Below are positions 23,736 to 63,987 of a stretch of DNA of 64,000 nucleotides, piece after piece (position 1 is the first letter of the stretch; every line of letters starts with the position of its first letter). The notes beneath the pieces are model-generated. The model saw only the letters and a program-made list of their open reading frames with translations, made no database searches and was not told where the DNA came from. Both the position numbers and the translations under genes were made by a program. The stretch is taken from NCBI GenBank assembly GCA_944372575.1, contig CALVZS010000007.1:10132-74131 (forward strand), in the 5' to 3' direction. The DNA comes from an uncultured Clostridia bacterium (GTDB lineage Bacteria; Bacillota; Clostridia; Christensenellales; Borkfalkiaceae).

Positions 23736-24476
23736 ATGGAACTCATCTATGAAAGCGCAGGGAAGAAATTCTACCGCGACGGGAACAAGCTCATCAAGTC
23801 GTTTGACGAGAGCTATTCCAAGGCGAACATCCTCAACGAAGCGCTCAACCAGGCGCGCGTGGAGGAGACGGGGCTGAACATCCCCAAGATTCTCGCCGTC
23901 ACGGTGGTGGACGGCAGGTGGGCGATCGTCCGCGAACTCATCGAGGGCGAGACGCTCGAATCGCTCATGGAAAAGCATCCCGAGAAGGAGGATGAATACC
24001 TCAACTTCTTCGTTGACCTGCAGATCCGCATGAGCAAGGAGCGCGTACCCCTTCTGGGTCATCTGCGCGACAAGATGCACATGAAGATCTCCTCGAGCGC
24101 CTATCCCGCCACGGTGCGCTACGATCTGCATATGCGCCTGGACGGCCTGCCTCGGCACAACAAGCTCTGCCACGGCGACTTCCAGCCCAGCAACATCATC
24201 ATCACTTCGGACGGCACGCCCTACATCGTCGACTGGTCGCACGCCACGCAGGGCAACGGCTCGGCGGATGCCGCGCGCACATACCTCATCTTCAAGTTGC
24301 AGGGCAAGGACGCGCTCGCCGAAAAGTACCTCAATCTCTTCTGCGCCAAGACGGATACTGCTATTCAGTATGTTCAGCGCATTCTGCCCATCGTCGCGGC
24401 GTCCCAGTCCGTCAAAGGCAAGCCGGAGGAGAAGGAATTCCTCGACAAGTGGGTCAACGTCTGCGATTGGCAGTAA
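23736..24476 (+). CDS. aminoglycoside phosphotransferase (APH)/choline-kinase-like phosphotransferase family protein
   Basis: 246 aa. Catalytic loop CHGDFQPSNIIITSDGTPYIVDWSHA (HGD...N...D). The stop TAA is immediately followed by repeat copy A. Confidence 0.75.
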   Translation: MELIYESAGKKFYRDGNKLIKSFDESYSKANILNEALNQARVEETGLNIPKILAVTVVDGRWAIVRELIEGETLESLMEKHPEKEDEYLNFFVDLQIRMSKERVPLLGHLRDKMHMKISSSAYPATVRYDLHMRLDGLPRHNKLCHGDFQPSNIIITSDGTPYIVDWSHATQGNGSADAARTYLIFKLQGKDALAEKYLNLFCAKTDTAIQYVQRILPIVAASQSVKGKPEEKEFLDKWVNVCDWQ

Positions 24477-24806
24477 AAGGGTTCACACTTTTTCTTTCGA
24501 ACTGACGAAAGAAAAAGTCGTGAGTTTTATAGACAACCCATTGCACGCCGCAAAAGCGGCTGACAATGTGTTTGTCTCAACCGCGCCAATCAAAATGCGA
24601 TTTTGCTTGCGCGAGTGATGGATGGCAGGTTCACACGTTTTTCCGCGAACTGACGTCGTCGGAACGGAGCGCAATGCGCAGCTGTTTGGCAAAGCCAAAC
24701 AGCACGCTGAAAACGCTCGTTCCTCCTCTTCGCAAAAAATCTTTGCGCAGCAAATCTTTTTTGCGAACCACTGCGAAAGCCGATATATCTCGTGAGGGAA
24801 AGGACA
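24477..24806 (+). repeat. modular structured repeat, copy A (H1 hairpin 24482-24524; module 2 at 24629-24785)
   Basis: Shares the H1 hairpin with copies B and C, and a ~110-nt core with copy B. Starts 1-5 nt after the TAA of the upstream gene. Confidence 0.8.
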
Positions 24807-28733: not shown

Positions 28734-30230
28734 ATGAGGAAGGAATGGTTTTTCGATCATCTGTGCGGCGCACAGATCGCCGTGTATGCCGAGGACGGCA
28801 GGATCGCCGAGGCGGTCTTTGAGCGCGGCAACTGCGCCGAACTGACGGGCAATATCTACAAGGGCAGGGTATGCAACCTCGTTCCCGGGATGCAGGCGGC
28901 ATTCGTCTCCTGCGGGCTGGAGCGCAACTGCTATCTGCCTCTGGGTGAGGGCGCGGCACGCTTTACGGCCTATGACGGGGAGGGAAATGCGCTGCGCGCC
29001 CCCGATCTGAAGGAGGGGGACGAGATCCTTGTGCAGATCGTCAAGCCCCCGCGCGGCAGCAAGGGTGCGAAGGTGACGTGCGATCTCTCCTTTGTGGGCA
29101 AGACGCTCATCTATCTGCCGCAGACGGACTTTCTGGGGATCTCGCGCAAGATCGTCGAGGGCGATGTGCGCGAGCGCCTCTTGAAGGATGTGGACAAGCT
29201 GCGGGACGAAGGGACGGGCTTCATCGTACGCACGGCCGCGGAGGAGGCGGACAGGCGGCATCTGAAGATTGAATCGGAATACCTGAAGCGTGTGTGGCAT
29301 ACGGTGGAGCGGGCAGCGGCTTCCGCCGCCGTGGGCGACGTCGTCTACCGCGAATACGATCTTCCCATGAAGGTCATGCGCGACAGCCTGGGCGGCGGCG
29401 TCACGCGCATCTATGTAGGGGACAGGGCGACGTACGAAAACGTCGTCCGCCTTGCGCGGATGCGCCCCGATCTGGGCGAGCGTAAGATCGTCCTCTATGA
29501 CGGAAAACATGAGATGATGCGCGCCTTCGGCATTGCCGGTCAGCTCAACCAGCTTGCCGACCGCGTCGTACAGCTGGAGAACGGCGGATATCTGGTCATC
29601 GACAAGACGGAGGCGATGACGGTCATCGACGTCAACACGGGTAAATTCGTCGGCGAGATCGATCTGGAGAGTACGGTATTTGAGACCAATCTCGTTGCCG
29701 CGCGCGAGATCGCGCGGCAGGTTCGCCTGCGCAACATCGGCGGGCTGGTCGCCGTCGACTTCATCGATATGGCGAATGAGGCGCACCGCGCTGCCGTGGA
29801 TGAGGCGCTCTCGGCAGCGCTCGCGCTCGACCGCGCCAAGAGCCGCGTCTCCCCGATGGGGGATATGTGCGTGACCATGTTCACGCGCAAGCGCACCAAC
29901 AACGATGCGGCGGATTTCTATCTGCAGTCCTGCCCGCATTGCACGGGACACGGAACGATCTTTTCGGATATCTACCTCGCCATCTGTATTCGCGGCGAGA
30001 TCACCGAGCGCTTTGCCGACGACTATTCCTCCGCCGTGGTGGAGTGCAACCGCGAGCTTGCCAAAAATATCCTCTCCAAACGCTATCTTGCGGAGGAAGT
30101 GCGCACCGTCTGGGCGGGCAGGCGCATCTATCTCATCCCGCACGACGACTGGGCATATGAAAGGTTTTCCGTACATGGCGACAATGCCGGCGTGCTGTCT
30201 CTGCCCGACTCGGCGATGCTGTTGTACTGA
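28734..30230 (+). CDS. rng: ribonuclease E/G family protein (Rng-like)
   Basis: S1 domain (GNIYKGRVCNLVPGMQAAFVSCG) followed by an RNase E/G catalytic core. The start is uncertain (TTG at 28692 or ATG at 28734). Confidence 0.85.
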   Translation: MRKEWFFDHLCGAQIAVYAEDGRIAEAVFERGNCAELTGNIYKGRVCNLVPGMQAAFVSCGLERNCYLPLGEGAARFTAYDGEGNALRAPDLKEGDEILVQIVKPPRGSKGAKVTCDLSFVGKTLIYLPQTDFLGISRKIVEGDVRERLLKDVDKLRDEGTGFIVRTAAEEADRRHLKIESEYLKRVWHTVERAAASAAVGDVVYREYDLPMKVMRDSLGGGVTRIYVGDRATYENVVRLARMRPDLGERKIVLYDGKHEMMRAFGIAGQLNQLADRVVQLENGGYLVIDKTEAMTVIDVNTGKFVGEIDLESTVFETNLVAAREIARQVRLRNIGGLVAVDFIDMANEAHRAAVDEALSAALALDRAKSRVSPMGDMCVTMFTRKRTNNDAADFYLQSCPHCTGHGTIFSDIYLAICIRGEITERFADDYSSAVVECNRELAKNILSKRYLAEEVRTVWAGRRIYLIPHDDWAYERFSVHGDNAGVLSLPDSAMLLY

Positions 30231-30242
30231 AGGGGGCGTAGG

Positions 30243-31274
30243 ATGAACGGCAGATCGGCATCTGCCCCGCCGAAGGGCATCGGAACGGGCATCGCGCTCG
30301 CTGTCCTGGCGGCGGCGCTCTATTCCGTCAATTCGCCTCTCTCCAAATTGCTGCTCGGCTATATGCCCTCCACACTCATGGCGGGCTTTTTGTATCTTGG
30401 CGCGGGGATAGGGATGGGGGCGGTCGCTCTGCTGCGCAGGAGGGCGAGGGGGCTGCCCGCGGAACACAAACTCACGCGGCGGGAGCTGCCCTACACTGTC
30501 GCTATGGTATTGCTCGACATCGCGGCGCCCGTCTGCCTGCTCTTCGGCCTGCGCACCACTTCGGCGGCGAATGCCTCTCTCCTGAACAATTTTGAGATCG
30601 TTGCCACTGCCCTTGTCGCGCTTGCGGTGTTCCGCGAAAAGATCAGTCTGCGGCTCTGGCTGGGAATCGCGTGTGTGACGGCTGCGTGCGCTCTGCTCTC
30701 CTTTGAAGACGGCTCCGGCCTGCAGTTCTCCTACGGCTCGCTGTTCATCCTCGCCGCCTGTGTCTGCTGGGGTGTGGAAAACAACTGCACCCGCAAGATC
30801 TCCTCCAAGGATCCCATGCAGATCGTCCTCATCAAGGGCATCTTTTCGGGGCTTGGTTCCCTGGTCATCGGCTTTTCCGTCGGCGAACGGGTGGGTGCGG
30901 CGTGGAGCGTCTTTGCCGTACTCGGTGTCGGCTTCGTCGCCTACGGATTGAGCATTTTCTTCTATGTCTATGCGCAGCGCCTGCTCGGGGCGGCGCGCAC
31001 CAGTGCGTATTACGCCATTGCACCCTTCATCGGCACGCTGCTCTCCCTTGTGATCTTCCGGGAACTGCCGCACTACACCTTTTTTATTGCGCTCGCCGTC
31101 ATGGCGGTGGGGGCGTGGCTGTCCGCAAACGATGCGCCGCTGTTCAGGCGGCACAGAAAGGTGCGCAAGGGCGACGGGGCGGGAAGTGCCGAACAGGCAC
31201 AGCCGGGTGAGCAGAACGGGCAGGCGGAGCCGCCTTCTCCGTCGGAGGAGCCGGAAAACCCCGTGCCGAAATGA
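30243..31274 (+). CDS. DMT superfamily (EamA-like) transporter
   Basis: 343 aa, about 10 TM segments in two EamA halves, with a charged C-terminal tail. Confidence 0.85.
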   Translation: MNGRSASAPPKGIGTGIALAVLAAALYSVNSPLSKLLLGYMPSTLMAGFLYLGAGIGMGAVALLRRRARGLPAEHKLTRRELPYTVAMVLLDIAAPVCLLFGLRTTSAANASLLNNFEIVATALVALAVFREKISLRLWLGIACVTAACALLSFEDGSGLQFSYGSLFILAACVCWGVENNCTRKISSKDPMQIVLIKGIFSGLGSLVIGFSVGERVGAAWSVFAVLGVGFVAYGLSIFFYVYAQRLLGAARTSAYYAIAPFIGTLLSLVIFRELPHYTFFIALAVMAVGAWLSANDAPLFRRHRKVRKGDGAGSAEQAQPGEQNGQAEPPSPSEEPENPVPK

Positions 31275-31361
31275 TGCAAACAGCAAAAGCGTTTGGAATC
31301 AAATACGCCGCGGCGGGGTCATGCGACCCCGCCGCGGCGGCCTTTGCCTCGCATCGCGCAA

Positions 31362-31802
31362 TCAGGCGATCATTTCCTTCCATTTCTTTTCAAACGATTC
31401 CTCGGCGGAGAGCAGTTCCTTCGCGAGGGAGAGGATCTCTTCATCGCCTTCCTCGCTCACTTCACCCAGCGTGCTCTTGAGCGCCGTAATGCCCATCACC
31501 GTCCCCTGCACCATCATTTCGGCGATGTGTGCGCGGGAATTGTCCGTCATCGTGCTCATCTTGATGCTCGACCACATCATCGCCTTTTTGATGGGGCCGG
31601 GGTTCTTGAGTTCGATGTTCTTGTCCTTTGCAAGGATGGCGGCACGCCCGCCGATCTTTTCGTAGTCCTCATGCTGGCGCAGCAGCTCCTCTTTGAGCTG
31701 CGCATCCTCCGTTTCGGGCAGGATGTCCGAGATGGACTGCAGCGCAAGCTGGCAGTTGCGGTGTACCTCCGCCAGCACCTCTTCGCTCTTTTTGAGTTCC
31801 AT
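31362..31802 (-). CDS. hypothetical helical protein
   Basis: 146 aa, acidic, predicted all-helical. Good coding signal. No family recognised. Confidence 0.6.
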   Translation of the reverse strand: MELKKSEEVLAEVHRNCQLALQSISDILPETEDAQLKEELLRQHEDYEKIGGRAAILAKDKNIELKNPGPIKKAMMWSSIKMSTMTDNSRAHIAEMMVQGTVMGITALKSTLGEVSEEGDEEILSLAKELLSAEESFEKKWKEMIA

Positions 31803-32777: not shown

Positions 32778-33171
32778 GTTTTCCTTCAAATCACGGAATC
32801 GTTTTAACCGCAGCCACTCGCAAAAAAGATTTGCTTTGCAAAGATTTTTTGCGATGAGGAGGGACGAGCGTTTTCAGCGTGCTGTTCGGCTTTGCCGTAC
32901 AGCCGCATATTGCGCTCCGTTCCGACGAGCCTTTGCGTGAGAAAATCCGTGAACTGGTTATAATTATTCGCGCAAGGAGGGTTTCCCTCCGCCAGCGCCC
33001 CACATTTGCGCATACCTGTGCTTATGCGGAAAGAGTGAAGGCGGCGATGTTATAATTGTTGCCAATTATCGCCGCAAAGAGAAAACCCGCGGTCAGCCAA
33101 AGGCGTGTCCGCGGGTTTTCTCTCAAACTCACGACTTTTTCTTTCATCAGTTTGAAAGAAAAAGTGTGAAC
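32778..33171 (-). repeat. modular structured repeat, copy B (H1 33128-33171; H2 33083-33125; H3 about 33048-33082; module 2 32808-32955)
   Basis: Reverse-strand copy. The G of the ATPase TAG stop is the first base of GTTCACAC. Module 2 is about nine-tenths identical to copy A by eye. Confidence 0.8.
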
Positions 33172-35995: not shown

Positions 35996-36070
35996 TGGAG
36001 GCGCCACCCGGATTTGAACCGGGGCGTCAGGGTTTTGCAGACCCTTGCCTTACCTCTTGGCTATGGCGCC
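35996..36070 (-). tRNA. tRNA-Cys (GCA)
   Basis: The reverse complement GGCGCCATAGCCAAGAGGTAAGGCAAGGGTCTGCAAAACCCTGACGCCCCGGTTCAAATCCGGGTGGCGCCTCCA folds as a cloverleaf with a CTGCAAA anticodon loop and encoded CCA. Confidence 0.9.
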
Positions 36071-36114
36071 GATTTCCCTTTTCGGGAAATAAAAAACAGC
36101 GCGGAAATCGTGTT

Positions 36115-36189
36115 TGGAGCGGGAAACGAGACTCGAACCCGCGACATTCACCTTGGCAAGGTGACGCTCTACCACTGAGCTATTCCCGC
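36115..36189 (-). tRNA. tRNA-Gly (GCC)
   Basis: The reverse complement GCGGGAATAGCTCAGTGGTAGAGCGTCACCTTGCCAAGGTGAATGTCGCGGGTTCGAGTCTCGTTTCCCGCTCCA has the anticodon loop TTGCCAA. Confidence 0.9.
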
Positions 36190-36213
36190 ATAATCTTTGA
36201 TTCCGCGCTGTGT

Positions 36214-36289
36214 TGGTGGAAACAACAGGGCTCGAACCTGTGACCCTCTGCTTGTAAGGCAGATGCTCTCCCAGCTGAGCTATGCTTCC
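36214..36289 (-). tRNA. tRNA-Val (TAC)
   Basis: The reverse complement GGAAGCATAGCTCAGCTGGGAGAGCATCTGCCTTACAAGCAGAGGGTCACAGGTTCGAGCCCTGTTGTTTCCACCA has the anticodon loop CTTACAA. Confidence 0.9.
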
Positions 36290-55707: not shown

Positions 55708-56730
55708 ATGGACAAGTCATTGCAGGAAATTTTGCAGGAGGCGGCGGAAAAGTTCGCCGCAGCGGCGGACAGCCACGCGCTGTATGAGGCAAAGATGGCG
55801 TTCCTGGGCAAGATGGGCAGGCTGGGCGCCCTCTACAAAAAGCTTAAAGAGCTGCCCGAGAGCGAGCGGCCCGCTTTCGGCGCGCAGATCAACGAACTGC
55901 GCCGCGCCATCGAGGAGCGCGTCGCCGTCATCGAGGGGATGCTGCACGCGCGCGAGCTTTCCGCCCGCCTGGAGGGCGAACGGGTGGACGTCACCATGCC
56001 CGGCCGCAGGCGCCGGCAGGGGACGCTGCACCCCGTCACGCGCGTGAAGAACATGCTCATCGATGTCTTTGCGGGCATGGGCTTCGAGGTGTTCGAGGGG
56101 CCGGAGATCGAGACGGACTACTACAACTTCACGGCGCTCAACACGCCTGCCGATCACCCCGCGCGCGATATGCAGGATACCTTCTATCTCGCCGACGGGC
56201 TGCTTCTGCGCACGCAGACCAGTGCGGGGCAGATCCGGATGATGGAGCAAAAGAAGCCGCCCATCAAGATGCTCTCGCCCGGCAGGGTGTTCCGCTCGGA
56301 CGACGATGCCACCCACTCGCCCATGTTCCACCAGATGGAGGGGCTCGTGGTGGATAAGGACATCACCCTCTGCGACCTGCAGGGGATGCTCGACGAGTTT
56401 GCGCGCGTCATCTTCGGAAAGGAGAGCAAGACGCGCCTGCGTCCCTCCTACTTCCCCTTCACGGAACCCTCCGTCGAGGTGGACGTCTCCTGCCACGCCT
56501 GCGGGGGGAAGGGGTGTTCGCTGTGCAAGGGAACGGGCTGGATCGAGGTGCTCGGCGCGGGCATGGTCAACCGCCGCGTGCTGGAAAACTGCGGCATCGA
56601 TCCCGACGTGTACTCCGGCTTCGCCTTCGGCATGGGCATCGAGCGCATCGCCATGCTCAAGTACGGCATCAACAATATCAAGCTGCTCACCGAGAACGAC
56701 GTGCGTTTTCTGGAGCAGTTCAAGGATTAA
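55708..56730 (+). CDS. pheS: phenylalanine--tRNA ligase alpha subunit
   Basis: 340 aa from the ATG at 55708. Class II motifs ([31 protein letters not shown]). The upstream part of the track ORF covers the T-box leader. Confidence 0.96.
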
Positions 56731-56745
56731 AGGGGGGAAACGGAG

Positions 56746-59139
56746 ATGTTATTACCGCTCAGCTGGCTGAAAGATTATGTGGACGTGGACGTCACCTCCG
56801 AGGAACTCAGGGACAAACTCTTCTCCTGCGGGTTCGAGGTGGAGGAGATGACCTATCTTGGCAGGGACGTCGTCAACGTCGTCACGGGGCGCATCACCAG
56901 GACGGAGAAGCACCCCGATGCGGACAGGCTCACCGTCTGTCAGGTGGACTGCGGCGAGAAGGGCGTGCGGCAGATCGTCACGGCGGCGACCAACGTGTTT
57001 ACGGGCGCCGTCGTCCCCGTCGCGCTCGATAATTCCACCGTCCTGCACGAGGGCGGGGTACAGAAGATCAGGACGGGCAAACTGCGCGGCGTGCCGTCGG
57101 AGGGAATGTTCTGCTCGGGCGAGGAACTGGGCATCACGGACGATTTCTATGTGGGTGCCGAGGTCAACGGCATCCTCATCCTCGACGGCGATACGCCGCT
57201 CGGGCAGGACATCCGCCCCGTCGTCGGCATCGACGACTGGATCTTCGATATCGCCGTCACCGCCAACCGCCCCGACTGTCAGTGCGTGTTCGGCATGGCG
57301 CGCGAGGTGGCTGCCATCCTCAAAAAGCCGCTCCGAGTTCCCGCAACCGATTATACGGCGCATGAGACGGACGTGAAGATCGCGGTGGAGGTCAAAGAGC
57401 CTGCGCTCTGCCCCCGCTATGTGGGCAACTATGTGGCAGACGTGAAGATCGGCACCTCGCCCCGCTGGCTACGCCGCCGCCTTGCGCTGTGCGGCCTCAG
57501 GTCGGTGTCGGACATTGTGGACATCACCAACTTCGTGCTGCTGGAGCTGGGACAGCCCATGCACGCCTTTGACAGGAACTACCTCGAGGGGGACGCCATC
57601 GTGGTGCGCCGCGCGCAGGCGGGCGAGAAGATCGTCACGCTCGATGAAAAGGAGTTCACCCTCACGCCGGACAACCTGCTCATCTGCGACAGGAAAAAGG
57701 GCGTGGCGCTCGCGGGCATCATGGGCGGGCTCAATTCCGAGATCAAGGCGGACACGCGAGAGGTGTTCTTCGAGTCTGCGAAGTTTGCGCGCGACAGCGT
57801 GCGCAAGACTTCCCGCGCGCTCGGCCAGCGCAGCGATTCCTCCGCCCGCTTTGAAAAGGGCATGGACGCCTGGACGTGCGGCTTTGCCATGGATCGCGCG
57901 CTGCACCTTGTGCAGCAGCTGGGCTGCGGCGTTCCCACCGCCTGTCGCGCCGACGTCAACGCCGACCCGCTCACGCCCAAGGTCATTGAGGCGGGGTACG
58001 AAAAGATCGACGCGTTGCTCGGCATCCGGGTGCCGCACGCGGAGATGGCTGCCATTCTGGAGCGCCTCGGCTTCGGCGTGGAGACGCGCGAGGGGGGCAT
58101 GATCGTGACCGTGCCGCTCTGGCGGGAGGATGTGGACGGCTATCCCGACCTCGCGGAGGAGATCATCCGCTCCTACGGCTACGAACATCTCACGCCCACC
58201 TTCCTGGCGCGCGCGGCCGTCACGCGCGGCGGCCTGGACGAGGCGCAGAAGATGCAGGAGAAGTGCAAGCGCACCCTGCAGCACGAGGGCTTCATGGAGA
58301 CGTGCAGCTACTCCTTCTATTCGCCCAAGGACTTCGACCTTCTCCGCCTTGCCGCCGACGCGCCCGAACGCCGCGCCATCCGCATCCTCAATCCCATCGG
58401 CGAGGATCTGTCCGTCATGCGCACCATCCTTGCGCCCAGCATGATCGCCGATATCGTGCGCAACGTGCGCCGCGGCAACGATGCGGGCAGGCTGTTCGAG
58501 CTTGCTAACGTCTACCTCGCCGGGGAACTGCCCCTTGTGCGGCAGCCGGAGGAGCGGGCGCATATCTCCCTCGGCCTGTGGGGAGAGGGCGACTTCTTTG
58601 ATCTCAAGGGCGCCGTGGAGGCGATCGCGGAGGCATTCGATCTCCGCCTCACCTTCGAGCGCTGCGAAAAGCCCTTCCTGCACTCCGGCGTGGCGGCCTG
58701 CGTCAGGCTGGGCGAGCGGGAGGTCGGCTGGCTGGGCGAACTGCACCCCGCCGTCGCCGAGGAACTTGCCCTGGAAAAGCGCGCCTATCTCGGCGAGCTG
58801 GACTATGCGCAGCTCTCCGGAAAATTTGCGAAGGACATCACCTTCCGTGCGCTGCCCAAATATCCCGACGTCGTGCGCGATCTGGCGGTGGTCGTCGGAG
58901 AGGAGGTCACCTGCGCGCAGGTGGAGAACGTCATTCTCAGGAGCTGCCGCGCGGCAAAGCGGGCGGAACTGTTCGACGTGTTCCATGGCGCGGCGCTGGG
59001 CGCGGGGAAAAAGAGCATGGCGTTCCACATCACCTTCGCTGCAGAGGGGGACAAGGCCGTCACGCCCGAACTTTCGGAAAAATATTTCAAGCGCATCGTC
59101 GAAATGCTTGAAAAAGAGCTGGGTGCGCAGCTTCGGTGA
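56746..59139 (+). CDS. pheT: phenylalanine--tRNA ligase beta subunit
   Basis: 797 aa. MLLPLSWLKDYVDV N-terminus, with tRNA-binding, B3/4, B5 and FDX-ACB domains. Confidence 0.96.
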   Translation: MLLPLSWLKDYVDVDVTSEELRDKLFSCGFEVEEMTYLGRDVVNVVTGRITRTEKHPDADRLTVCQVDCGEKGVRQIVTAATNVFTGAVVPVALDNSTVLHEGGVQKIRTGKLRGVPSEGMFCSGEELGITDDFYVGAEVNGILILDGDTPLGQDIRPVVGIDDWIFDIAVTANRPDCQCVFGMAREVAAILKKPLRVPATDYTAHETDVKIAVEVKEPALCPRYVGNYVADVKIGTSPRWLRRRLALCGLRSVSDIVDITNFVLLELGQPMHAFDRNYLEGDAIVVRRAQAGEKIVTLDEKEFTLTPDNLLICDRKKGVALAGIMGGLNSEIKADTREVFFESAKFARDSVRKTSRALGQRSDSSARFEKGMDAWTCGFAMDRALHLVQQLGCGVPTACRADVNADPLTPKVIEAGYEKIDALLGIRVPHAEMAAILERLGFGVETREGGMIVTVPLWREDVDGYPDLAEEIIRSYGYEHLTPTFLARAAVTRGGLDEAQKMQEKCKRTLQHEGFMETCSYSFYSPKDFDLLRLAADAPERRAIRILNPIGEDLSVMRTILAPSMIADIVRNVRRGNDAGRLFELANVYLAGELPLVRQPEERAHISLGLWGEGDFFDLKGAVEAIAEAFDLRLTFERCEKPFLHSGVAACVRLGEREVGWLGELHPAVAEELALEKRAYLGELDYAQLSGKFAKDITFRALPKYPDVVRDLAVVVGEEVTCAQVENVILRSCRAAKRAELFDVFHGAALGAGKKSMAFHITFAAEGDKAVTPELSEKYFKRIVEMLEKELGAQLR

Positions 59140-60337: not shown

Positions 60338-60450
60338 GGAACCCCTGCGGTGACTGACGAAGCAAGGCGGAGCACCGCGTGAAGCCGCAGGAGGGGAAAG
60401 AGCCGTTCGTCTGGGCAATTTTTATCGGTGGATAAAGATTGCCCTTTTTG
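60338..60450 (+). promoter_or_regulatory. ZTP riboswitch (pfl motif) with expression-platform terminator
   Basis: GGTGACTGACGAA ... GGCGGAGCACCGCGTGAAGC ... CCGTTCGTCTGGGCA matches the remembered pfl-motif pseudoknot pattern, with GACGAA pairing to TTCGTC. The terminator GGGCAAT...ATTGCCC plus TTTTT (60412-60450) overlaps the 3-prime pseudoknot strand. Confidence 0.78.
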
Positions 60451-60472
60451 AACCTTTTTCGGAGGGCGGGAC

Positions 60473-61201
60473 ATGGTCGGAAGAGTGCATTCCTACGAAT
60501 CGTTCGGCACGGTGGACGGCCCCGGCATCCGCTTCGTGGTCTTTCTGCAGGGCTGTCCCATGCGCTGCAGATACTGTCATAACCCCGACACCTGGGACGC
60601 GCGCGGGGGGCGGGAGGTCACGGCGGAGGAAGTCGCCCGCGAAGTGCTCAAATACAGGAACTACTTCGCCGACCGCGGCGGCGTCACCCTCTCGGGCGGC
60701 GAGCCCCTTTTGCAGCTCGACTTCGTGCTGGAACTCTTTTCCATTCTCAAAAAAAAGGGCATCCGCACCTGCCTGGATACCTCCGGCATCTGCTTTTCGG
60801 AAGAGGATGCACGCTACGAGCGCCTTGCCGCCCTGACCGATCTCGTGCTCTTGGACATCAAGCACATCGACGATGCGGCGCATCGTGCGCTGACGGGGCA
60901 GAGCAACAAAAACCCGTTGGCGTTTGCGCGGTTTCTGGACGAACGCGGCGTGAAAATGTGGATCAGACACGTGCTCGTCCCCGGCATCACGGACGACGAC
61001 GGGGCGCTCAGGGAGCTGCGCGCCTTCCTCGACACCCTCACCAATGTGGACAGGGTGGAGGTGCTGCCCTATCACACGATGGGGGTGCAGAAGTACAGAA
61101 AGCTGGGCATTCCCTATCCCCTGGAGGGGGTGCAGCCCCCTGCCCGCGAGCGGGTGGAGAATGCCGGACGTATATTATCGGACAGACAGGAGCGGCTATG
61201 A
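60473..61201 (+). CDS. pflA: pyruvate formate-lyase activating enzyme (radical SAM)
   Basis: 242 aa. GPGIRFVVFLQGCPMRCRYCHNPDTW with a CxxxCxxC cluster. Confidence 0.93.
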   Translation: MVGRVHSYESFGTVDGPGIRFVVFLQGCPMRCRYCHNPDTWDARGGREVTAEEVAREVLKYRNYFADRGGVTLSGGEPLLQLDFVLELFSILKKKGIRTCLDTSGICFSEEDARYERLAALTDLVLLDIKHIDDAAHRALTGQSNKNPLAFARFLDERGVKMWIRHVLVPGITDDDGALRELRAFLDTLTNVDRVEVLPYHTMGVQKYRKLGIPYPLEGVQPPARERVENAGRILSDRQERL

Positions 61202-61470
61202 GCAGATTTTCTCTTCTGGAAGTGAGCGGCGAATCGTGCGCCAACTGCCTGACGCTTCTGCCCGTGGTGAACCGCCTCGCGGCGGTGCGCGGGCTGGAGG
61301 TGGAGCATCTGGAGGTGAGCGAGGCGACCGCCGGGCGGGTGCGCGCCCTCGGCATTGACCGCGTTCCCACGCTCATCGTCTTAAAGGACGGCGCGGAGGT
61401 CGCCCGATGCACGGGCTATCAGCCGGAGGAGATCCTGGAACTCTGGCTGGATGCGAAGATACAGGAATAA
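61198..61470 (+). CDS. thioredoxin-fold protein (CANC motif)
   Basis: 90 aa from the ATG at 61198 (ATGA overlap with pflA). LLEVSGESCANCLTLLPV...VPTLIVLKDG fits the thioredoxin pattern. Confidence 0.7.
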   Translation: MSRFSLLEVSGESCANCLTLLPVVNRLAAVRGLEVEHLEVSEATAGRVRALGIDRVPTLIVLKDGAEVARCTGYQPEEILELWLDAKIQE

Positions 61471-61521
61471 CGGCAGTCTTTTTTTGACAAAATACAGGAT
61501 GATACAGTACGGAGAAAGAGT

Positions 61522-63549
61522 ATGAATTTTGAACATGCATGGCGCGGCTTTGAACGCGGCAAATGGAGCAACAACGAGGTCGACGTACGCGACTTCATTC
61601 AGCGCAATTATACCCCCTATGAGGGGGATTCCTCCTTCCTCGCTCCCGCCACCGAGGCGACCAAAAAGCTCTGGGCGCAGGTGATGGAGCTCACGCGTGA
61701 GGAGCGCGCGCGGGGCGGCGTGTACGACGCCGATACCGAGATCGTCTCGCGCGTCAATTCGCATGGGGCGGGCTATTTCAACAAGGATCTGGAAAAGATC
61801 GTGGGATTGCAGACGGATGCACCCTTTAAGCGCTCCCTGCAGCCCTTCGGCGGCATCCGCATGGCGGAGGAAGCGCTCAAGATGTACGGGTATGAGATCT
61901 CGCCGCGCGTAAAGGAGATCTTCACCAAGTACCGCAAGACGCACAACGACGGCGTGTTCGACGCCTACACGCCCGAAATGCGCCTGGCGCGCCACGCGCA
62001 CATCCTCACCGGACTGCCCGACACCTACGGCCGCGGGCGCATCGTGGGGGACTACCGCCGCGTCGCCCTCTACGGCGTGGACTACCTCATCAAAAAGAAG
62101 CAGGAGGACAAGCGCCTTCTGGACGGCGAAATGACGCCCGACAAGATCCGCGACAGGGAGGAGATCTCCGAGCAGGTGAAGGCGCTCGGCAGGCTCAAGG
62201 AGATGGCGGCGGCGTACGGCTTCGACATCTCCCGCCCCGCCGAGACGGCGCAGGAGGCGGTGCAGTGGCTGTACTTCGGCTATCTTGGCGCCATCAAGGA
62301 TCAGAACGGCGCGGCGATGTCCATCGGCCGCAACTCCACCTTCCTCGACATCTACATCCAGCGTGACCTGGATGAGGGCAAGCTCACCGAGCGGGAGGCG
62401 CAGGAGCTCATCGATCACTTCGTCATGAAGCTGCGTGTGGTCAAGTTCATGCGCATCAAGGAATACAATGAACTCTTCAGCGGCGATCCGACGTGGGTCA
62501 CCGAATCCATCGGCGGCATGGGCGTGGACGGCAGGACGCTGGTCACCAAGAACAGTTTCCGCATCCTGCACACCCTTGTCAACCTCGGTCCCGCGCCCGA
62601 GCCCAACCTCACGGTGCTCTGGTCAAAGCGCCTGCCCAAGAACTTCAAGACGTTCTGCGCGGAGATCTCCATCGCCACGTCCGCCATCCAGTACGAGAGC
62701 GACGATCTGATGCGGCCGGAGATGGGGGACGACTACTGCATCGCCTGCTGCGTGTCGAGTATGCGCGTGGGCAAGGATATGCAGTTTTTCGGCGCGCGCG
62801 CCAACCTTGCCAAGTGTCTGCTCTATGCCATCAACGGCGGCAAGGACGAGTTGGAAAAGGACAAGACGGGCAAGCCCCTGCAGGTGTCGCCCGCCTTTGC
62901 GCCCATCCTCGGCGACGGGCCGCTCGACTTCGAGGAGGTCAGGGAAAAGTACACGCAGATGATGCGCTGGCTGGCGGGGCTGTATGTGAACACGCTCAAC
63001 GTCATCCACTATATGCATGACAAGTACTGCTATGAGGCGCTCGAGATGGCGCTGCACGATTCGCAGGTGCGTCGCTTCTTTGCCACGGGCATCGCGGGGC
63101 TCTCCTGCGCGGCGGATTCCCTCTCCGCGATCAGGTACGCCAAGGTGTATCCCGTCCGCAACGAGGACGGCATCGTCACCGATTTTAAGATTGAGGGCGA
63201 CTATCCCAAGTACGGGAACAACGACGACCGCGTGGACGAGATCGCCGTATGGCTGGTCAAGACGTTCATGAACTTCATCAAGTCATACACCACCTACCGC
63301 GAATCGGTTCCGACCATGTCCATCCTCACCATCACCTCCAACGTGGTGTACGGCAAGAAGACGGGCAACACACCGGACGGCAGAAGGGCGGGGCAGCCGC
63401 TCGCGCCGGGCGCCAACCCCATGCACGGCAGGGATCACAGCGGTGCGCTCGCCTCGCTGGAGTCGGTGGCAAAGCTGCCCTATGACTACGCGCGGGACGG
63501 CATCTCCAACACCTTCTCGGTTACGCCGCAGTCGCTGGGGAAAGAGTAA
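61522..63549 (+). CDS. pflB: formate C-acetyltransferase (pyruvate formate-lyase) body, ending before the glycyl-radical domain
   Basis: 675 aa. Catalytic Cys pair in CIACCVS. Ends ...[14 protein letters not shown], where full-length PflB continues for about 80 more residues. Confidence 0.9.
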
Positions 63550-63750
63550 AGGGGTTCACACTTTTTTCCGCGAACTGACGCGGAAAAAAGTCGTGATTGA
63601 AAGGAAAGCCCAACGTTCGCCAAAGGCTCTGCGTTCGGTTTTCCTCTGCGCGGGCAGTGGCAACAGTTGTAGCGCCCGCGCATTCACCTTTCCGCAAAAG
63701 CCGCGTGTGCGGCAAAACATTTCATATCGTAAAAACAGGAGGAAACTACC
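63550..63750 (+). repeat. modular structured repeat, copy C (H1 63555-63596; H2 63602-63645; H3 63647-63682; H4 about 63688-63708), inserted within pflB
   Basis: Has the same H1 hairpin and conserved loop as copies A and B. H2 and H3 are homologous to copy B with different stems. It ends in AGGAGG-N8-ATG. Confidence 0.8.
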
Positions 63751-63987
63751 ATGGCAAACGAGAGAGCGGAAAATCTGGTCAATATGTTGGATGCCTATGT
63801 GGCGGACGGCGGGTATCATTTGAACGTCAACGTGTTCAACCGCGATACCTTGCTGGATGCGCAGAAGCACCCCGAAAAATATCCCCAGCTCACCATCCGC
63901 GTGAGCGGCTATGCGGTGAACTTCAACAAGCTGACCAAAGAGCAGCAGGATGACGTCATCGCCCGCACCATCCACGAGAGCATGTGA
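63751..63987 (+). CDS. stand-alone glycyl-radical domain (C-terminal fragment of PflB, GrcA/YfiD-like)
   Basis: 78 aa. ...[35 protein letters not shown] carries the RVSGY glycyl-radical signature. It has its own AGGAGG SD and is in the same reading frame as the upstream body. Confidence 0.85.

What the first reader, a model, noticed from the sequence alone, without database searches (positions are those of the whole stretch)
24474..24806. Repeat family copy A: element starts at the stop codon of the kinase-like gene; H1 hairpin shows compensatory stem changes and a conserved loop across copies
**Shared entry point.** All three loci begin the same way relative to a stop codon.
- Copy A: CAG-TAA-AAGG|GTTCACAC
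- Copy C: GAG-TAA-AGGG|GTTCACAC
- Copy B (reverse strand): AAA-TAG|TTCACAC

**Hairpin H1 follows immediately.**
- Copy A: TTCACACTTTTTCTTTC-GAACTGAC-GAAAGAAAAAGTCGTGA
- Copy C: TTCACACTTTTTTCCGC-GAACTGAC-GCGGAAAAAAGTCGTGA
- Copy B: TTCACACTTTTTCTTTC-AAACTGAT-GAAAGAAAAAGTCGTGA

The inner stem differs (CTTTC/GAAAG versus CCGC/GCGG) but remains complementary. The loop and a single bulged C in the 3-prime arm are retained. This pattern implies selection on structure, either in RNA or in single-stranded DNA, rather than neutral repeat decay.

**What it could be.** Imperfect subterminal palindromes with extrahelical bases and no terminal inverted repeats are reminiscent of IS200/IS605-type ends and their non-autonomous derivatives. 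No transposase or TnpB-like gene is present in the window. In A and C the TAA and its flanking AGTAAA(A/G)GG look like part of the shared sequence, so the element may itself supply the stop codon.
Basis: seen in the sequence. Interest (0 to 1): 0.75.

Follow-up and report, generated by a model that had tools for sequence, protein, structure and literature searches.

The report
Hairpin-capped mosaic intergenic repeat family
The 43-base hairpin after the kinase gene is the end-cap of a previously undescribed family of modular, hairpin-rich repeats that fill the gaps between genes in a group of uncultured gut Clostridia (Candidatus Gallimonas and relatives); it resembles the REP/BIME-type repeats of other bacteria, and it does not provide the gene's stop codon.

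Summary
H1 (window 24481-24523, 33171-33129 on the minus strand, 63554-63596) belongs to a family with more than 140 copies in 18 Candidatus Gallimonas and related chicken-gut MAGs, and further copies in other gut metagenomes. A search pattern that left 22 stem positions free found 98.5% of those positions Watson-Crick paired, across 22 distinct arm combinations (12 or more fully paired); 13 of 17 stem pairs show changes on both sides. The foot (TTCAC/GTGA) and the bulged C are invariant. The loop is conserved only within sublineages.

H1 is the outward-facing terminal module of polar mosaic arrays. The basic unit is about 214 nt (H1-H5), followed by other hairpin modules. These arrays fill intergenic gaps from the stop codon (-1 to +6 nt away) or up to the next gene's ribosome-binding site. 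Orthologous sites are filled or empty in different species, and array content differs between close genomes. Copy A has a 148-nt indel between strains, with breakpoints in two H1 loops.

The stop codons are native, and the split pfl gene at copy C predates the element. I found no transposase partner, target motif, target duplication or Rfam family.

Best reading: a lineage-specific REP/BIME-like selfish repeat whose mobilising enzyme is unknown. IS200/IS605 membership is not supported.

The parts
24481..24523 (+). Copy A, H1: terminal 43-nt hairpin GTTCACAC-TTTTTCTTTC-G AACTGA C-GAAAGAAAAAG-TCGTGA, with a bulged C in the 3' arm. It starts 4 nt after the native TAA (24474-24476) of the APH-family kinase gene.
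   Evidence: family membership.
24531..24578 (+). Copy A, H2-type hairpin (AGACAACCC...GTTTGTCT) with an inner hairpin and a CTGAC motif.
   Evidence: H2 follows H1 in nearly all copies.
24591..24628 (+). Copy A, H5-type hairpin plus tail (CAAAATGCGATTTTGCTTGCGCGAGTGATGG...). This is the usual 3' end of the basic unit; H3 and H4 are missing in this copy.
24629..24654 (+). Half-H1 'A2': GTTCACAC-GTTTTTCCGC-GAACTGAC with no 3' arm. It does not fold on its own. It opens unit II (module 2).
24507..24654 (+). 148-nt segment that is present or absent among strains of the same species. It runs from just after the H1 loop to just after the A2 loop. The short allele reads GTTCACACTTTTTCTTTCGAACTGAC|GTCGTCGG.
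   Evidence: 6 fetched strain contigs (L103, L104, L105, L108, L109, L110) plus the window carry the long allele; 4 (L101, L102, L106, L107) carry the short one. Flanks are otherwise identical.
24655..24775 (+). Module 2 of unit II: a long imperfect hairpin (24661-24723) followed by the hairpin TCGCAAAAAATCTTTGC-GCA-GCAAATCTTTTTTGCGA (24730-24766). It is 88% identical to 32928-32809.
   Evidence: (I1). The same module occurs in either orientation in other loci.
33129..33171 (-). Copy B, H1 (loop closed by A-T: AAACTGAT). Its first G is the third base of the TAG stop of the P-type ATPase gene.
32809..33128 (-). Copy B, rest of the array: H2 (33122-33073), H3/H4/H5-type modules, a half-H1 with an AAAG-class loop (32954-32929) and module 2 (32928-32809). 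It lies between the convergent ATPase and rpmA/rplU genes.
63554..63596 (+). Copy C, H1 (inner stem TCCGC/GCGGA). It starts 4 nt after the TAA of the PFL body gene.
63597..63717 (+). Copy C, rest of the array: H2 (63602-63645), H3 plus TTCAC (63647-63687) and a truncated H4 (63692-63717). It stops about 20 nt before the ribosome-binding site and ATG (63736-63753) of the 78-aa glycyl-radical subunit gene.
   Evidence: The array length is the same in 9 strains.

Best explanation
**What is shown**
- H1 is the conserved end-cap of a lineage-specific family of modular extragenic palindromic repeats in Candidatus Gallimonas and related gut Clostridia.
- The basic unit is polar and about 214 nt long: H1, then four further hairpins (H2-H5). 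Its distal end is often truncated or replaced by other hairpin modules.
- Units occur singly, in tandem, or as inverted pairs. In every arrangement the GTTCAC end of H1 faces outward.
- Arrays occupy the dispensable DNA between a stop codon and the next functional signal (a ribosome-binding site or a terminator/promoter).
- Orthologous sites are filled in some species and empty in others.
- Array content turns over much faster than the flanking DNA, through exchange, deletion and duplication between copies.

**What is inferred**
- The family is selfish, non-autonomous DNA of the REP/BIME or MITE kind.
- H1 works as a folded single strand, most likely DNA, because it occurs in both orientations relative to transcription.
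- Its invariant foot (TTCAC/GTGA) and flipped-out C would be read by a trans-acting protein that mobilises or processes the arrays.
- The inner stem only needs to pair, which explains the many discrete, fully complementary alleles.
- Arrays are passively co-transcribed as structured 3'-UTR or intercistronic RNA. They are tolerated because they do not block expression of downstream genes (pheT, the small PFL subunit).
- The enzyme has not been identified.
For: **Size and spread of the family**
- The genome-collection scan gave 95 stretches. 88 of them come from 18 Gallimonas-type MAGs, with 1-18 exact-pattern copies per MAG.
- A looser scan of metagenomes found 85 further stretches with 32 alleles.
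- The same kind of array occurs in a human-gut relative.

**Structure is kept, sequence is not**
-.

**H1 is the terminal module**
- The repeat boundary is sharp, exactly at GTTCAC.
- 140 of 172 hits to the unit model start at model positions 1-10, while their ends vary.
- Of 128 arrays, 95 have an outward-facing H1 at one end and 9 at both ends.
- 18 intergenic regions are fully spanned between two outward-facing H1 copies.

**Flush placement against coding sequences**
- In 73 of 79 after-stop copies, H1 starts -1 to +6 nt from the stop codon.
- Divergent start codons lie 14-21 nt away.

**Filled and empty orthologous sites**
- pheS-pheT: empty in the window at 56729-56746, but holding 650-700-nt arrays in L047, L012 and L093.
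- The kinase site, ffh and others, and pfl.

**Rapid turnover**
- Flanks are 97-99% identical while module content differs.
- H1 alleles are swapped at orthologous sites.
- There is a 148-nt indel between strains.
- One H1 is a chimera of two alleles (L092).

**Both orientations**
- The after-stop to before-start ratio is 79:30. Orientation follows gene strand, not replication strand.

**The REP analogy, from the literature**
- REPs are imperfect palindromes with a conserved motif at the 5' foot and a stem irregularity that the RAYT transposase needs for binding.
- BIME number at a given locus varies between strains (PMC3333891; PMC6006769).
Against: - No partner enzyme was found. tblastn with Y1 transposase sequences recalled from memory (IS608 TnpA, E. 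coli RAYT) gave nothing in about 720 kb around 88 loci.
- No multi-copy protein gene occurs next to the arrays.
- Genes lying between H1 pairs are housekeeping genes.
- The canonical REP guide tetranucleotide GT[AG]G is absent; the foot reads GTTC.
- H1 copies are not arranged as tight REPIN doublets.
- Copy number is modest.
- Whole genomes could not be scanned.
- Most data come from short-read MAGs, where the internal composition of arrays could be mis-assembled. H1 itself is anchored in unique flank, and copy A was seen in 10 independent assemblies.
- The 72% bias towards the sense orientation after stop codons would also fit a role at the RNA level.
Confidence: 0.55

Rival explanations
1. 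H1 and its array are a functional cis-acting RNA. A stable hairpin placed right after the stop codon (or, in the inverted orientation, right before the ribosome-binding site) would protect mRNA ends or direct endonucleolytic processing of polycistronic transcripts. Selection would then act on RNA structure.
For: - 79 of 109 classifiable copies are in the sense orientation, 0-6 nt after a stop codon.
- Covariation is strong.
- The whole copy A array folds far better than shuffled sequence (z = -6.8).
- Arrays inside operons (pheS-pheT, pfl body to small subunit) must be transcribed through.
- Copy A lies upstream of a canonical terminator.
Against: - About a quarter of copies are antisense to the adjacent gene.
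- The same sites are empty in sister species, which use ordinary terminators there.
- Array content is hypervariable between near-identical genomes.
- There is no excess of G-U over A-C mismatches.
- The bulge and foot are conserved regardless of orientation.
- There is no Rfam match.
Confidence: 0.2
2. H1 is a subterminal hairpin of a non-autonomous IS200/IS605-type element (a PATE), moved as single-stranded DNA by a Y1 TnpA encoded elsewhere.
For: - H1 is an imperfect hairpin with an extrahelical base, and there are no target-site duplications.
- An IS200-type TnpA exists in one related metagenome contig (L182 6365-6877, E = 5e-19 against IS608 TnpA as recalled from memory).
Against: - There is no conserved tetra- or pentanucleotide 5' of the element.
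- Arrays have one H1, or two in inverted orientation, not LE and RE hairpins in the same orientation.
- H1 sits at the very end of the array rather than in a subterminal position.
- Orientation does not follow the replication strand.
- The L182 IS200 has unrelated end hairpins and is not flanked by H1.
- No Y1 gene lies near 88 loci.
Confidence: 0.07
3. H1 is a recombination or nick site. The two arms would be binding sites, and the asymmetric centre (loop) would be the point of strand exchange for a site-specific recombinase, or for a HUH nuclease that nicks in the loop as at rolling-circle origins. Arrays would grow and shrink by exchange between such sites.
For: - The 148-nt strain indel has both breakpoints inside the identical 10 nt CGAACTGACG of two directly repeated H1-type sites. 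The result is a hybrid site.
- L092 carries a chimeric H1 with the 5' arm of one allele and the 3' arm of another.
- The 5' half of unit II shows the same allele diversity as H1 even though it has no 3' arm.
- The L025/L054 indel joins two H5 hairpins near their loops.
Against: - Deletion mediated by 9-10 nt of microhomology explains the indel without any enzyme.
- The loop sequence is not conserved across the wider family.
- The arms, which would have to be the binding sites, are the variable part.
- No recombinase was found nearby.
Confidence: 0.08
4. H1 is simply an intrinsic transcription terminator that has been duplicated around the genome.
For: The scan tool flags H1 as terminator-like in copies where TTTT follows the hairpin.
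Against: - The stem is A/T-rich.
- The T-run is absent in more than half of the copies.
- H1 lies inside essential operons (pheS-pheT) and is followed by 200-900 nt of further modules.
- It also occurs in the antisense orientation upstream of genes.
Confidence: 0.03

Closest known systems
REP / BIME (REPIN) elements with their RAYT (TnpA-REP) transposase, described in Proteobacteria and some other phyla
   Same: - Extragenic, 30-45-nt imperfect palindromes with a conserved motif at the 5' foot and a conserved stem irregularity.
- Stems covary between subfamilies.
- Copies are assembled into mosaic arrays with other short motifs.
- They are found after genes and between genes of operons.
- The number and content of units at a locus varies between strains.
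- The sequence is specific to the species or lineage (PMC3333891, PMC2817692, PMC6006769, PMC3116915).
   Different: - The foot motif is GTTC(AC), not GT[AG]G.
- There is one bulged C rather than a mismatch.
- H1 is a polar end-cap of a five-hairpin unit, not one half of a tight inverted doublet.
- No RAYT was found.
- The host is an uncultured Clostridia lineage.
- Copy number is tens, not hundreds.
Modular Gram-positive repeats such as the pneumococcal BOX element (boxA-boxB-boxC). Named from my own knowledge; not tested here.
   Same: - Composite of distinct short modules in a fixed order, with variable numbers of modules.
- Intergenic, predicted to be highly structured, co-transcribed with neighbouring genes, and with no coding capacity.
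   Different: - There is no sequence similarity.
- BOX has defined modules at both ends, whereas here only the H1 end is fixed.
- The flush placement against stop codons and ribosome-binding sites, and the discrete covarying hairpin alleles, are not features described for BOX.
TIR-type MITEs such as Neisseria Correia elements. Named from my own knowledge.
   Same: - Double-ended arrays read 5'-GTTCAC...GTGAAC-3', that is, with inverted ends.
- They insert between genes and are co-transcribed.
   Different: - Most arrays have only one H1 end.
- Lengths are not uniform.
- There is no target-site duplication.
IS200/IS605 ends and PATEs
   Same: Hairpin with an extrahelical base; no target duplication.
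   Different: See the membership test: target motif, hairpin arrangement, strand bias and partner gene were all not met or not found.
Integron attC sites. Named from my own knowledge.
   Same: - Imperfect hairpins with extrahelical bases that begin at or inside the stop codon of the upstream gene.
- The stem sequence is free and the structure is conserved.
- There is a GTT at the boundary.
   Different: - H1 is shorter (43 nt).
- The boundary reads GTTCACA, not GTTRRRY.
- The neighbouring genes are housekeeping genes at scattered loci, not cassettes in one array.
- No integrase was seen.

Membership tests
REP/BIME (RAYT-associated) | Short extragenic imperfect palindrome present in many dispersed copies | tested here: met
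   More than 140 H1 copies in about 720 kb from 18 MAGs, all extragenic.
REP/BIME (RAYT-associated) | Conserved GT[AG]G guide tetranucleotide 0-2 nt 5' of the hairpin foot (PMC6006769, PMC3333891) | tested here: not met
   The foot reads (G)TTCAC. The first G is itself variable (A or C in some copies).
REP/BIME (RAYT-associated) | Conserved irregularity in the stem | tested here: met
   The bulged C before GTGA is invariant in 41 distinct sequences and in all loop classes.
REP/BIME (RAYT-associated) | A RAYT/TnpA-REP gene in the genome, flanked by the cognate REPs | tested here: inconclusive
   - None was found within the 8-kb blocks around 88 loci, nor in 650 kb of metagenome loci. The queries were sequences recalled from memory.
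REP/BIME (RAYT-associated) | REPs paired in inverted orientation with short linkers (BIME/REPIN) | tested here: not met
   74% of arrays have a single H1. Inverted pairs are 420-1060 nt apart, at opposite ends of an array.
IS200/IS605 non-autonomous element (PATE) | Insertion 3' of a fixed tetra- or pentanucleotide target | tested here: not met
   There is no fixed motif in the 12 nt upstream of 92 non-redundant junctions, only A/G- or A/T-richness.
IS200/IS605 non-autonomous element (PATE) | Similar subterminal hairpins at both ends on the same strand | tested here: not met
   Arrays have one terminal H1, or two in inverted orientation.
IS200/IS605 non-autonomous element (PATE) | Cognate Y1 TnpA whose own element ends carry the same hairpins | tested here: not met
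   The only IS200 seen (L182) has end hairpins ACCCGCGGATAGTCCGCGGGT and CCACCGGCTATGCCGGTGG, which are unrelated to H1.
IS200/IS605 non-autonomous element (PATE) | Orientation bias relative to the replication fork | tested here: not met
   H1 strand follows gene strand. Before-start copies split 16:10 with respect to the sign of GC skew. This is a crude test, made on 8-kb blocks.
TIR-type MITE | Terminal inverted repeats plus target-site duplication and uniform length | tested here: not met
   No direct repeats flank 18 double-ended arrays, and lengths range from 420 to 1060 nt.
Integron attC | R''/R' core sites (RYYYAAC ... GTTRRRY) and cassette organisation next to an integrase | tested here: not met
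   The boundary reads GTTCACA, which does not fit GTTRRRY. Neighbouring genes are housekeeping genes at scattered loci.
Any described RNA family (Rfam 15) | Covariance-model match at or near the gathering score | tested here: not met
   There is no hit on any of the three arrays, even at E <= 10 (best 17.8 bits against gathering scores of 50-216).
Intrinsic terminator | G+C-rich stem directly followed by a U-tract | tested here: not met
   The stem is A/T-rich, and a T-run follows in only a minority of copies.

The most novel reading that the evidence does not exclude
H1-capped units are a new kind of polar, hairpin-ended mobile module. It would have one fixed end and one variable end, like one-ended or rolling-circle transposition, and an unrecognised enzyme would read the TTCAC/GTGA foot and the flipped-out C. 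The module would home to the very edge of coding sequences (within 0-6 nt of stop codons, or just upstream of ribosome-binding sites) and would reshuffle by strand exchange in the hairpin loop. Alternatively, the host has co-opted the arrays as intercistronic insulating or processing cassettes.
Probability: 0.12. Interest if true: 0.75.

Novelty: new variant of a known kind. Interest (0 to 1): 0.45.

Why it matters
**Significance**
- Dispersed hairpin repeats of the REP/BIME type are well studied in Proteobacteria but barely described in Clostridia. I found no description of this family: 15 papers mention Gallimonas and none concerns repeats.
- The family gives an unusually clear natural data set:
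  - many discrete, fully paired hairpin alleles with an invariant foot and bulge;
  - arrays that stop within a few bases of stop codons and ribosome-binding sites;
  - filled and empty orthologous sites;
  - a polymorphism within one species whose breakpoints lie in hairpin loops.
- If the partner protein can be found, it would extend REP/RAYT-like biology to a new phylum-level context, or reveal a different enzyme.

**Practical consequences**
- These arrays will break short-read assemblies of these gut bacteria.
- They create spurious small ORF calls (for example, one search lists 41- and 69-aa 'genes' inside array B).
- They could serve as strain markers.

Tried and rejected
- **Rfam.** The whole window at gathering thresholds, and the three arrays at E <= 10, gave nothing relevant.
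- **Viral contigs, plasmids and phages.** No H1 or unit match.
- **The idea that copy C split the pfl gene and supplied its stop codon and ribosome-binding site.**
  - This looked attractive after Pfam showed the Gly_radical domain cut at profile position 48/51.
  - I rejected it because the same split exists in all 120 closest homologues, and in relatives with a 14-nt or 64-nt gap and no H1.
- **Y1 transposase or RAYT partner.** tblastn with sequences recalled from memory gave nothing near H1. The single IS200 hit in a metagenome contig is unrelated to H1.
- **An autonomous element between distant inverted H1 pairs.** The genes in between are TrkH, Ffh and PcrA/UvrD.
- **Multi-copy protein genes within one genome.** None found.
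- **Target-site duplication and target motif.** Neither found.
- **Replication-strand bias.** None beyond gene orientation.
- **Outward promoter in the inverted unit.**
  - The H3 loop reads TGCTATACT in reverse complement.
  - It is not conserved among H3 variants and was not picked up by the consensus scan, so I dropped the idea.
- **Excess of G-U over A-C mismatches as a sign of RNA-level selection.** No asymmetry.
- **Strain polymorphism at copies B and C.** None among 13 and 23 contigs respectively.
Full report
**1.

- Copy A: H1 at 24481-24523 (+), 4 nt after the TAA (24474-24476) of an APH-family kinase gene.
- Copy B: H1 at 33171-33129 (-). Its first G is the last base of the TAG stop of a P-type ATPase gene.
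- Copy C: H1 at 63554-63596 (+), 4 nt after the TAA of a pyruvate formate-lyase (PFL) gene.

The 12-mer TTCACACTTTTT (at most 1 mismatch) occurs four times, against 0.12 expected. The fourth site (24629-24654) is a 'half-H1': 5' arm and loop but no 3' arm. Each H1 folds as a 17-bp hairpin with one bulged C, as RNA or DNA and on either strand (z = -5 to -6.7). The whole copy A array is also far more structured than shuffled sequence (z = -6.8).

**2. It is a large family, and structure rather than sequence is conserved**

I scanned one genome per species (185,579 species) with a pattern that fixed only GTTCACAC, AACTGA and GTCGTGA. The scan gave 95 stretches.
- 88 come from 18 MAGs of Candidatus Gallimonas or 'uncultured Clostridia' from chicken gut, with 1-18 copies per MAG.
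- 7 are unrelated chance hits (Microcoleus, a Rhodospirillaceae, a Bacillota).

In the 96 family copies, 1039 of 1055 positions left free by the pattern are Watson-Crick paired, across 22 arm combinations. In the 7 unrelated hits the figure is 17 of 69.

A wider structural search found about 145 H1-type hairpins in about 720 kb. Their properties are:
- an invariant foot, TTCAC...(C)GTGA;
- an invariant bulged C;
- an A/T-rich middle stem;
- covariation right next to the bulge (CAC-AC/GT-C-GTG, CAC-GA/TC-C-GTG, CAC-AG/CT-C-GTG);
- two loop classes, R-AACTGA-Y and C-AAAG-G.

On 41 distinct sequences, 97.1% of cells pair, against 76.9% after shuffling and 40-57% with slid partners. 13 of 17 pairs change on both sides. 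That set was chosen with an energy filter, so one search is the unbiased test.

A looser scan of metagenomes added 85 stretches with 32 alleles.
- The 43-nt class has loops of the form xxCTGAx.
- A 36-37-nt class has variable 3-4-nt loops.
- The arms are complementary in nearly every allele.

A human-gut relative (L098) has the same kind of arrays with still other loops. So the loop is conserved only within sublineages. The foot, the bulge and the pairing are the constants.

**3. What H1 belongs to**

All-against-all comparison shows a sharp repeat boundary exactly at GTTCAC: coverage rises from about 2 to about 63 copies. It also shows a core of about 200 nt.

The basic unit is about 214 nt:
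- H1;
- H2 (GAGAGACAACCC...GGTTTTCTCTC, with a variable inner hairpin);
- H3 (a G+C stem with the loop ..GCAACAGTATAGC.., followed by TCAC);
- H4;
- H5 with the tail TGATTTATAGC.

A profile of this unit hits 172 places. 140 of them start at model positions 1-10. Only 68 reach the end; the rest stop after H2, H3 or H4. Many other hairpin modules follow, in either orientation.

With its half-H1, module 2 forms a second kind of unit (unit II). Unit II occurs 10 times, and in 6 of those it is itself the outward terminal module.

Of 128 arrays, 95 have an outward-facing H1 at one end, 9 at both ends and 24 at neither. 18 intergenic regions are fully spanned between two outward-facing H1 copies. In the window there are only the three arrays, about 0.8 kb in total.

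**4. Position relative to genes**

The 141 H1 copies not at a locus edge fall into these contexts.
- 79 follow the stop codon of a co-oriented gene. The distance is -1 to +6 nt in 73 of them. In 11, the G of GTTCAC completes a TAG.
- About 30 lie next to the ribosome-binding site of a divergent gene, with the start codon 14-21 nt away.
- 8 are internal to arrays.
- 24 are unclear.

There is no fixed upstream motif; C is simply avoided. There is no target-site duplication. H1 orientation follows gene strand, not the sign of GC skew.

**5. The stop codons are native**

- *Copy A.* The kinase is 246 aa in all 120 closest homologues, down to 81% identity. Species at 89% and 84% identity end the gene with the same ...GATTGGCAGTAA, followed by an ordinary terminator and promoter and no H1.
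- *Copy C.*
  - Pfam shows the Gly_radical domain cut between the 675-aa body and a 78-aa ORF, which at first suggested an insertion that split the gene.
  - However, all 120 closest homologues (86-95% identity) end at ...SLGK[DE][DE].
  - Relatives have TAA + 14 nt + ATG, or a 64-nt gap, with no H1.
  - The element therefore colonised an existing gap between stop codon and ribosome-binding site.

**6. Dynamics**

*Filled and empty orthologous sites:*
- pheS-pheT: the window has TAA-AGGGGGGAAACGGAG-ATG at 56729-56746, while three other species carry 650-700-nt arrays there. In L047 the array is capped by an outward H1 at both ends.
- The kinase site.
- ffh and other sites.

*Close genomes.* Between genomes whose flanks are 97-99% identical, arrays differ by whole modules. 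H1 is swapped between discrete alleles, for example CTTTCA..TGAAAG against TCCGCG..CGCGGA in L025/L054, while the neighbouring H2-H4 are identical.

*Within the window's own species.* Copy A is dimorphic.
- Six independent assemblies (plus the window) carry the long allele and four carry a short one.
- The short allele lacks exactly 24507-24654. That is 148 nt, from just after the H1 loop to just after the half-H1 loop.
- The short-allele junction reads GTTCACACTTTTTCTTTCGAACTGAC|GTCGTCGG.
- The crossover lies within 10 identical bases (CGAACTGACG).

Copies B and C show no length variation among 13 and 23 contigs. One H1 (L092) is a chimera of two alleles.

These events fit recombination or slippage between short identical stretches. 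They do not require a dedicated enzyme, but they do not exclude one either.

**7. Search for a partner and for known families**

- There is no Rfam family, even at E <= 10.
- There is no match in viral contigs, plasmids or phages.
- tblastn with IS608 TnpA and E. coli RAYT sequences recalled from memory found nothing near 88 loci.
- It found one IS200-type gene in a metagenome contig (L182, E = 5e-19). That element's end hairpins are unrelated to H1 and it is not flanked by H1.
- Genes between distant H1 pairs are housekeeping genes.
- No protein gene is multi-copy within a genome.
- The literature search on Gallimonas shows no description of these repeats.

**8. Interpretation**

*Shown:* a lineage-specific, modular, polar family of extragenic palindromic repeats with H1 as its end-cap.

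*Inferred:* it behaves like REP/BIME-type selfish DNA.
- It has spread to new intergenic sites within this lineage.
- It is kept out of coding and signal sequences by selection, hence the flush junctions.
- It is reshuffled by exchange between copies.
- H1 is kept as a hairpin with a fixed foot and a flipped-out base because some protein reads it on a single strand.

The analogy with REPs is close. REPs have a conserved motif at the foot and a stem irregularity required for RAYT binding, and BIME number varies by strain (PMC3333891; PMC6006769). Membership nevertheless fails on three counts: the GT[AG]G motif, the doublet organisation, and (so far) the transposase.

The RNA alternative (a protective or processing hairpin in 3' UTRs and between cistrons) remains possible, because 72% of classifiable copies are in the sense orientation after stop codons. 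It is weakened by the antisense copies, by the empty sites in sister species, and by the hypervariable array content.

The IS200/IS605 reading is not supported.

**9. Caveats**

- Almost all comparative data are short-read MAGs or metagenome contigs, so internal array composition may contain assembly errors. H1 next to unique flank, and the copy A alleles seen in ten assemblies, are robust.
- Whole genomes could not be searched for a partner gene.
- The Y1 query sequences were recalled from memory.
- ORF-based context calls in a 62% G+C genome are approximate.

Noticed in passing
window 60340-63987: A natural two-gene pyruvate formate-lyase.
- The body is 675 aa (61522-63549) and lacks the glycyl-radical glycine.
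- A separate 78-aa subunit (63751-63987) carries the RVSGY motif.
- The operon is headed by a ZTP riboswitch (60340-60423, RF01750, 59 bits) and the activase gene (60473-61201).
- The split is conserved in all 120 closest homologues and in human-gut relatives. It recalls the GrcA 'spare part' protein, but here as the only source of the radical domain.
   Followed up: partly
window 56729-56746: The pheS-pheT junction is an 'empty site'. Three other Gallimonas-type species carry 650-700-nt repeat arrays between these two essential, co-transcribed genes.
   Followed up: yes
window 35999-36289 (-): Three tandem tRNA genes (Rfam tRNA, 64-69 bits).
   Followed up: no
window 30215-31378: About 1.1 kb, including the ORF 30243-31274 (343 aa), is absent from the otherwise syntenic locus L062 of a sister species. 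This is a gene-sized indel.
   Followed up: no
L182 6200-7010; L088 1047-1075; L160 6361-6393: - L182 holds an IS200-type element: a 170-aa Y1 TnpA with its own end hairpins.
- Its left-end hairpin AAAACCCGCGGAT(A/C)GTCCGCGGGT also occurs alone in L088 and L160, followed by a conserved stretch (..CCGATGAGCAGAACTGAAT..GGAG..).
- The outer letters AAACCCGCGG...CCGCGGGTTT resemble the inner hairpin of many H2 modules.
- This may be coincidence (the palindrome CCGCGG) or a hint about where H2 came from.
   Followed up: partly
L128 4212-4555 (= window about 32800-33150): Public gene calls place 41-aa and 69-aa 'genes' inside repeat array B. These are almost certainly spurious ORFs created by the repeat.
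   Followed up: no
L005, L021, L032, L040, L056: Microcoleus and Oscillatoriales genomes share a conserved sequence that matches the H1 search pattern by chance (GTTCACACAACTTTTGGCAAAACTGAGGATATGTCTGTCGTGA). Its arms do not pair and it is unrelated to this family.
   Followed up: partly
L021-L095, many loci (e.g. L024 7430-7520, L047 5560-5640): There are further repeat modules of other types. Examples are TTGCCTCCCTCTTTGAGGGAGGTG...GTGACGGTGGGAGTTCTTGC, GGTCACGAAATTGCC...GGCAATTTCTCAGTTCGCG and AGGCATAACGCAGTGACGCCTTTTGC. They combine with H1 units in either orientation, so these genomes hold a whole repertoire of hairpin modules.
   Followed up: partly
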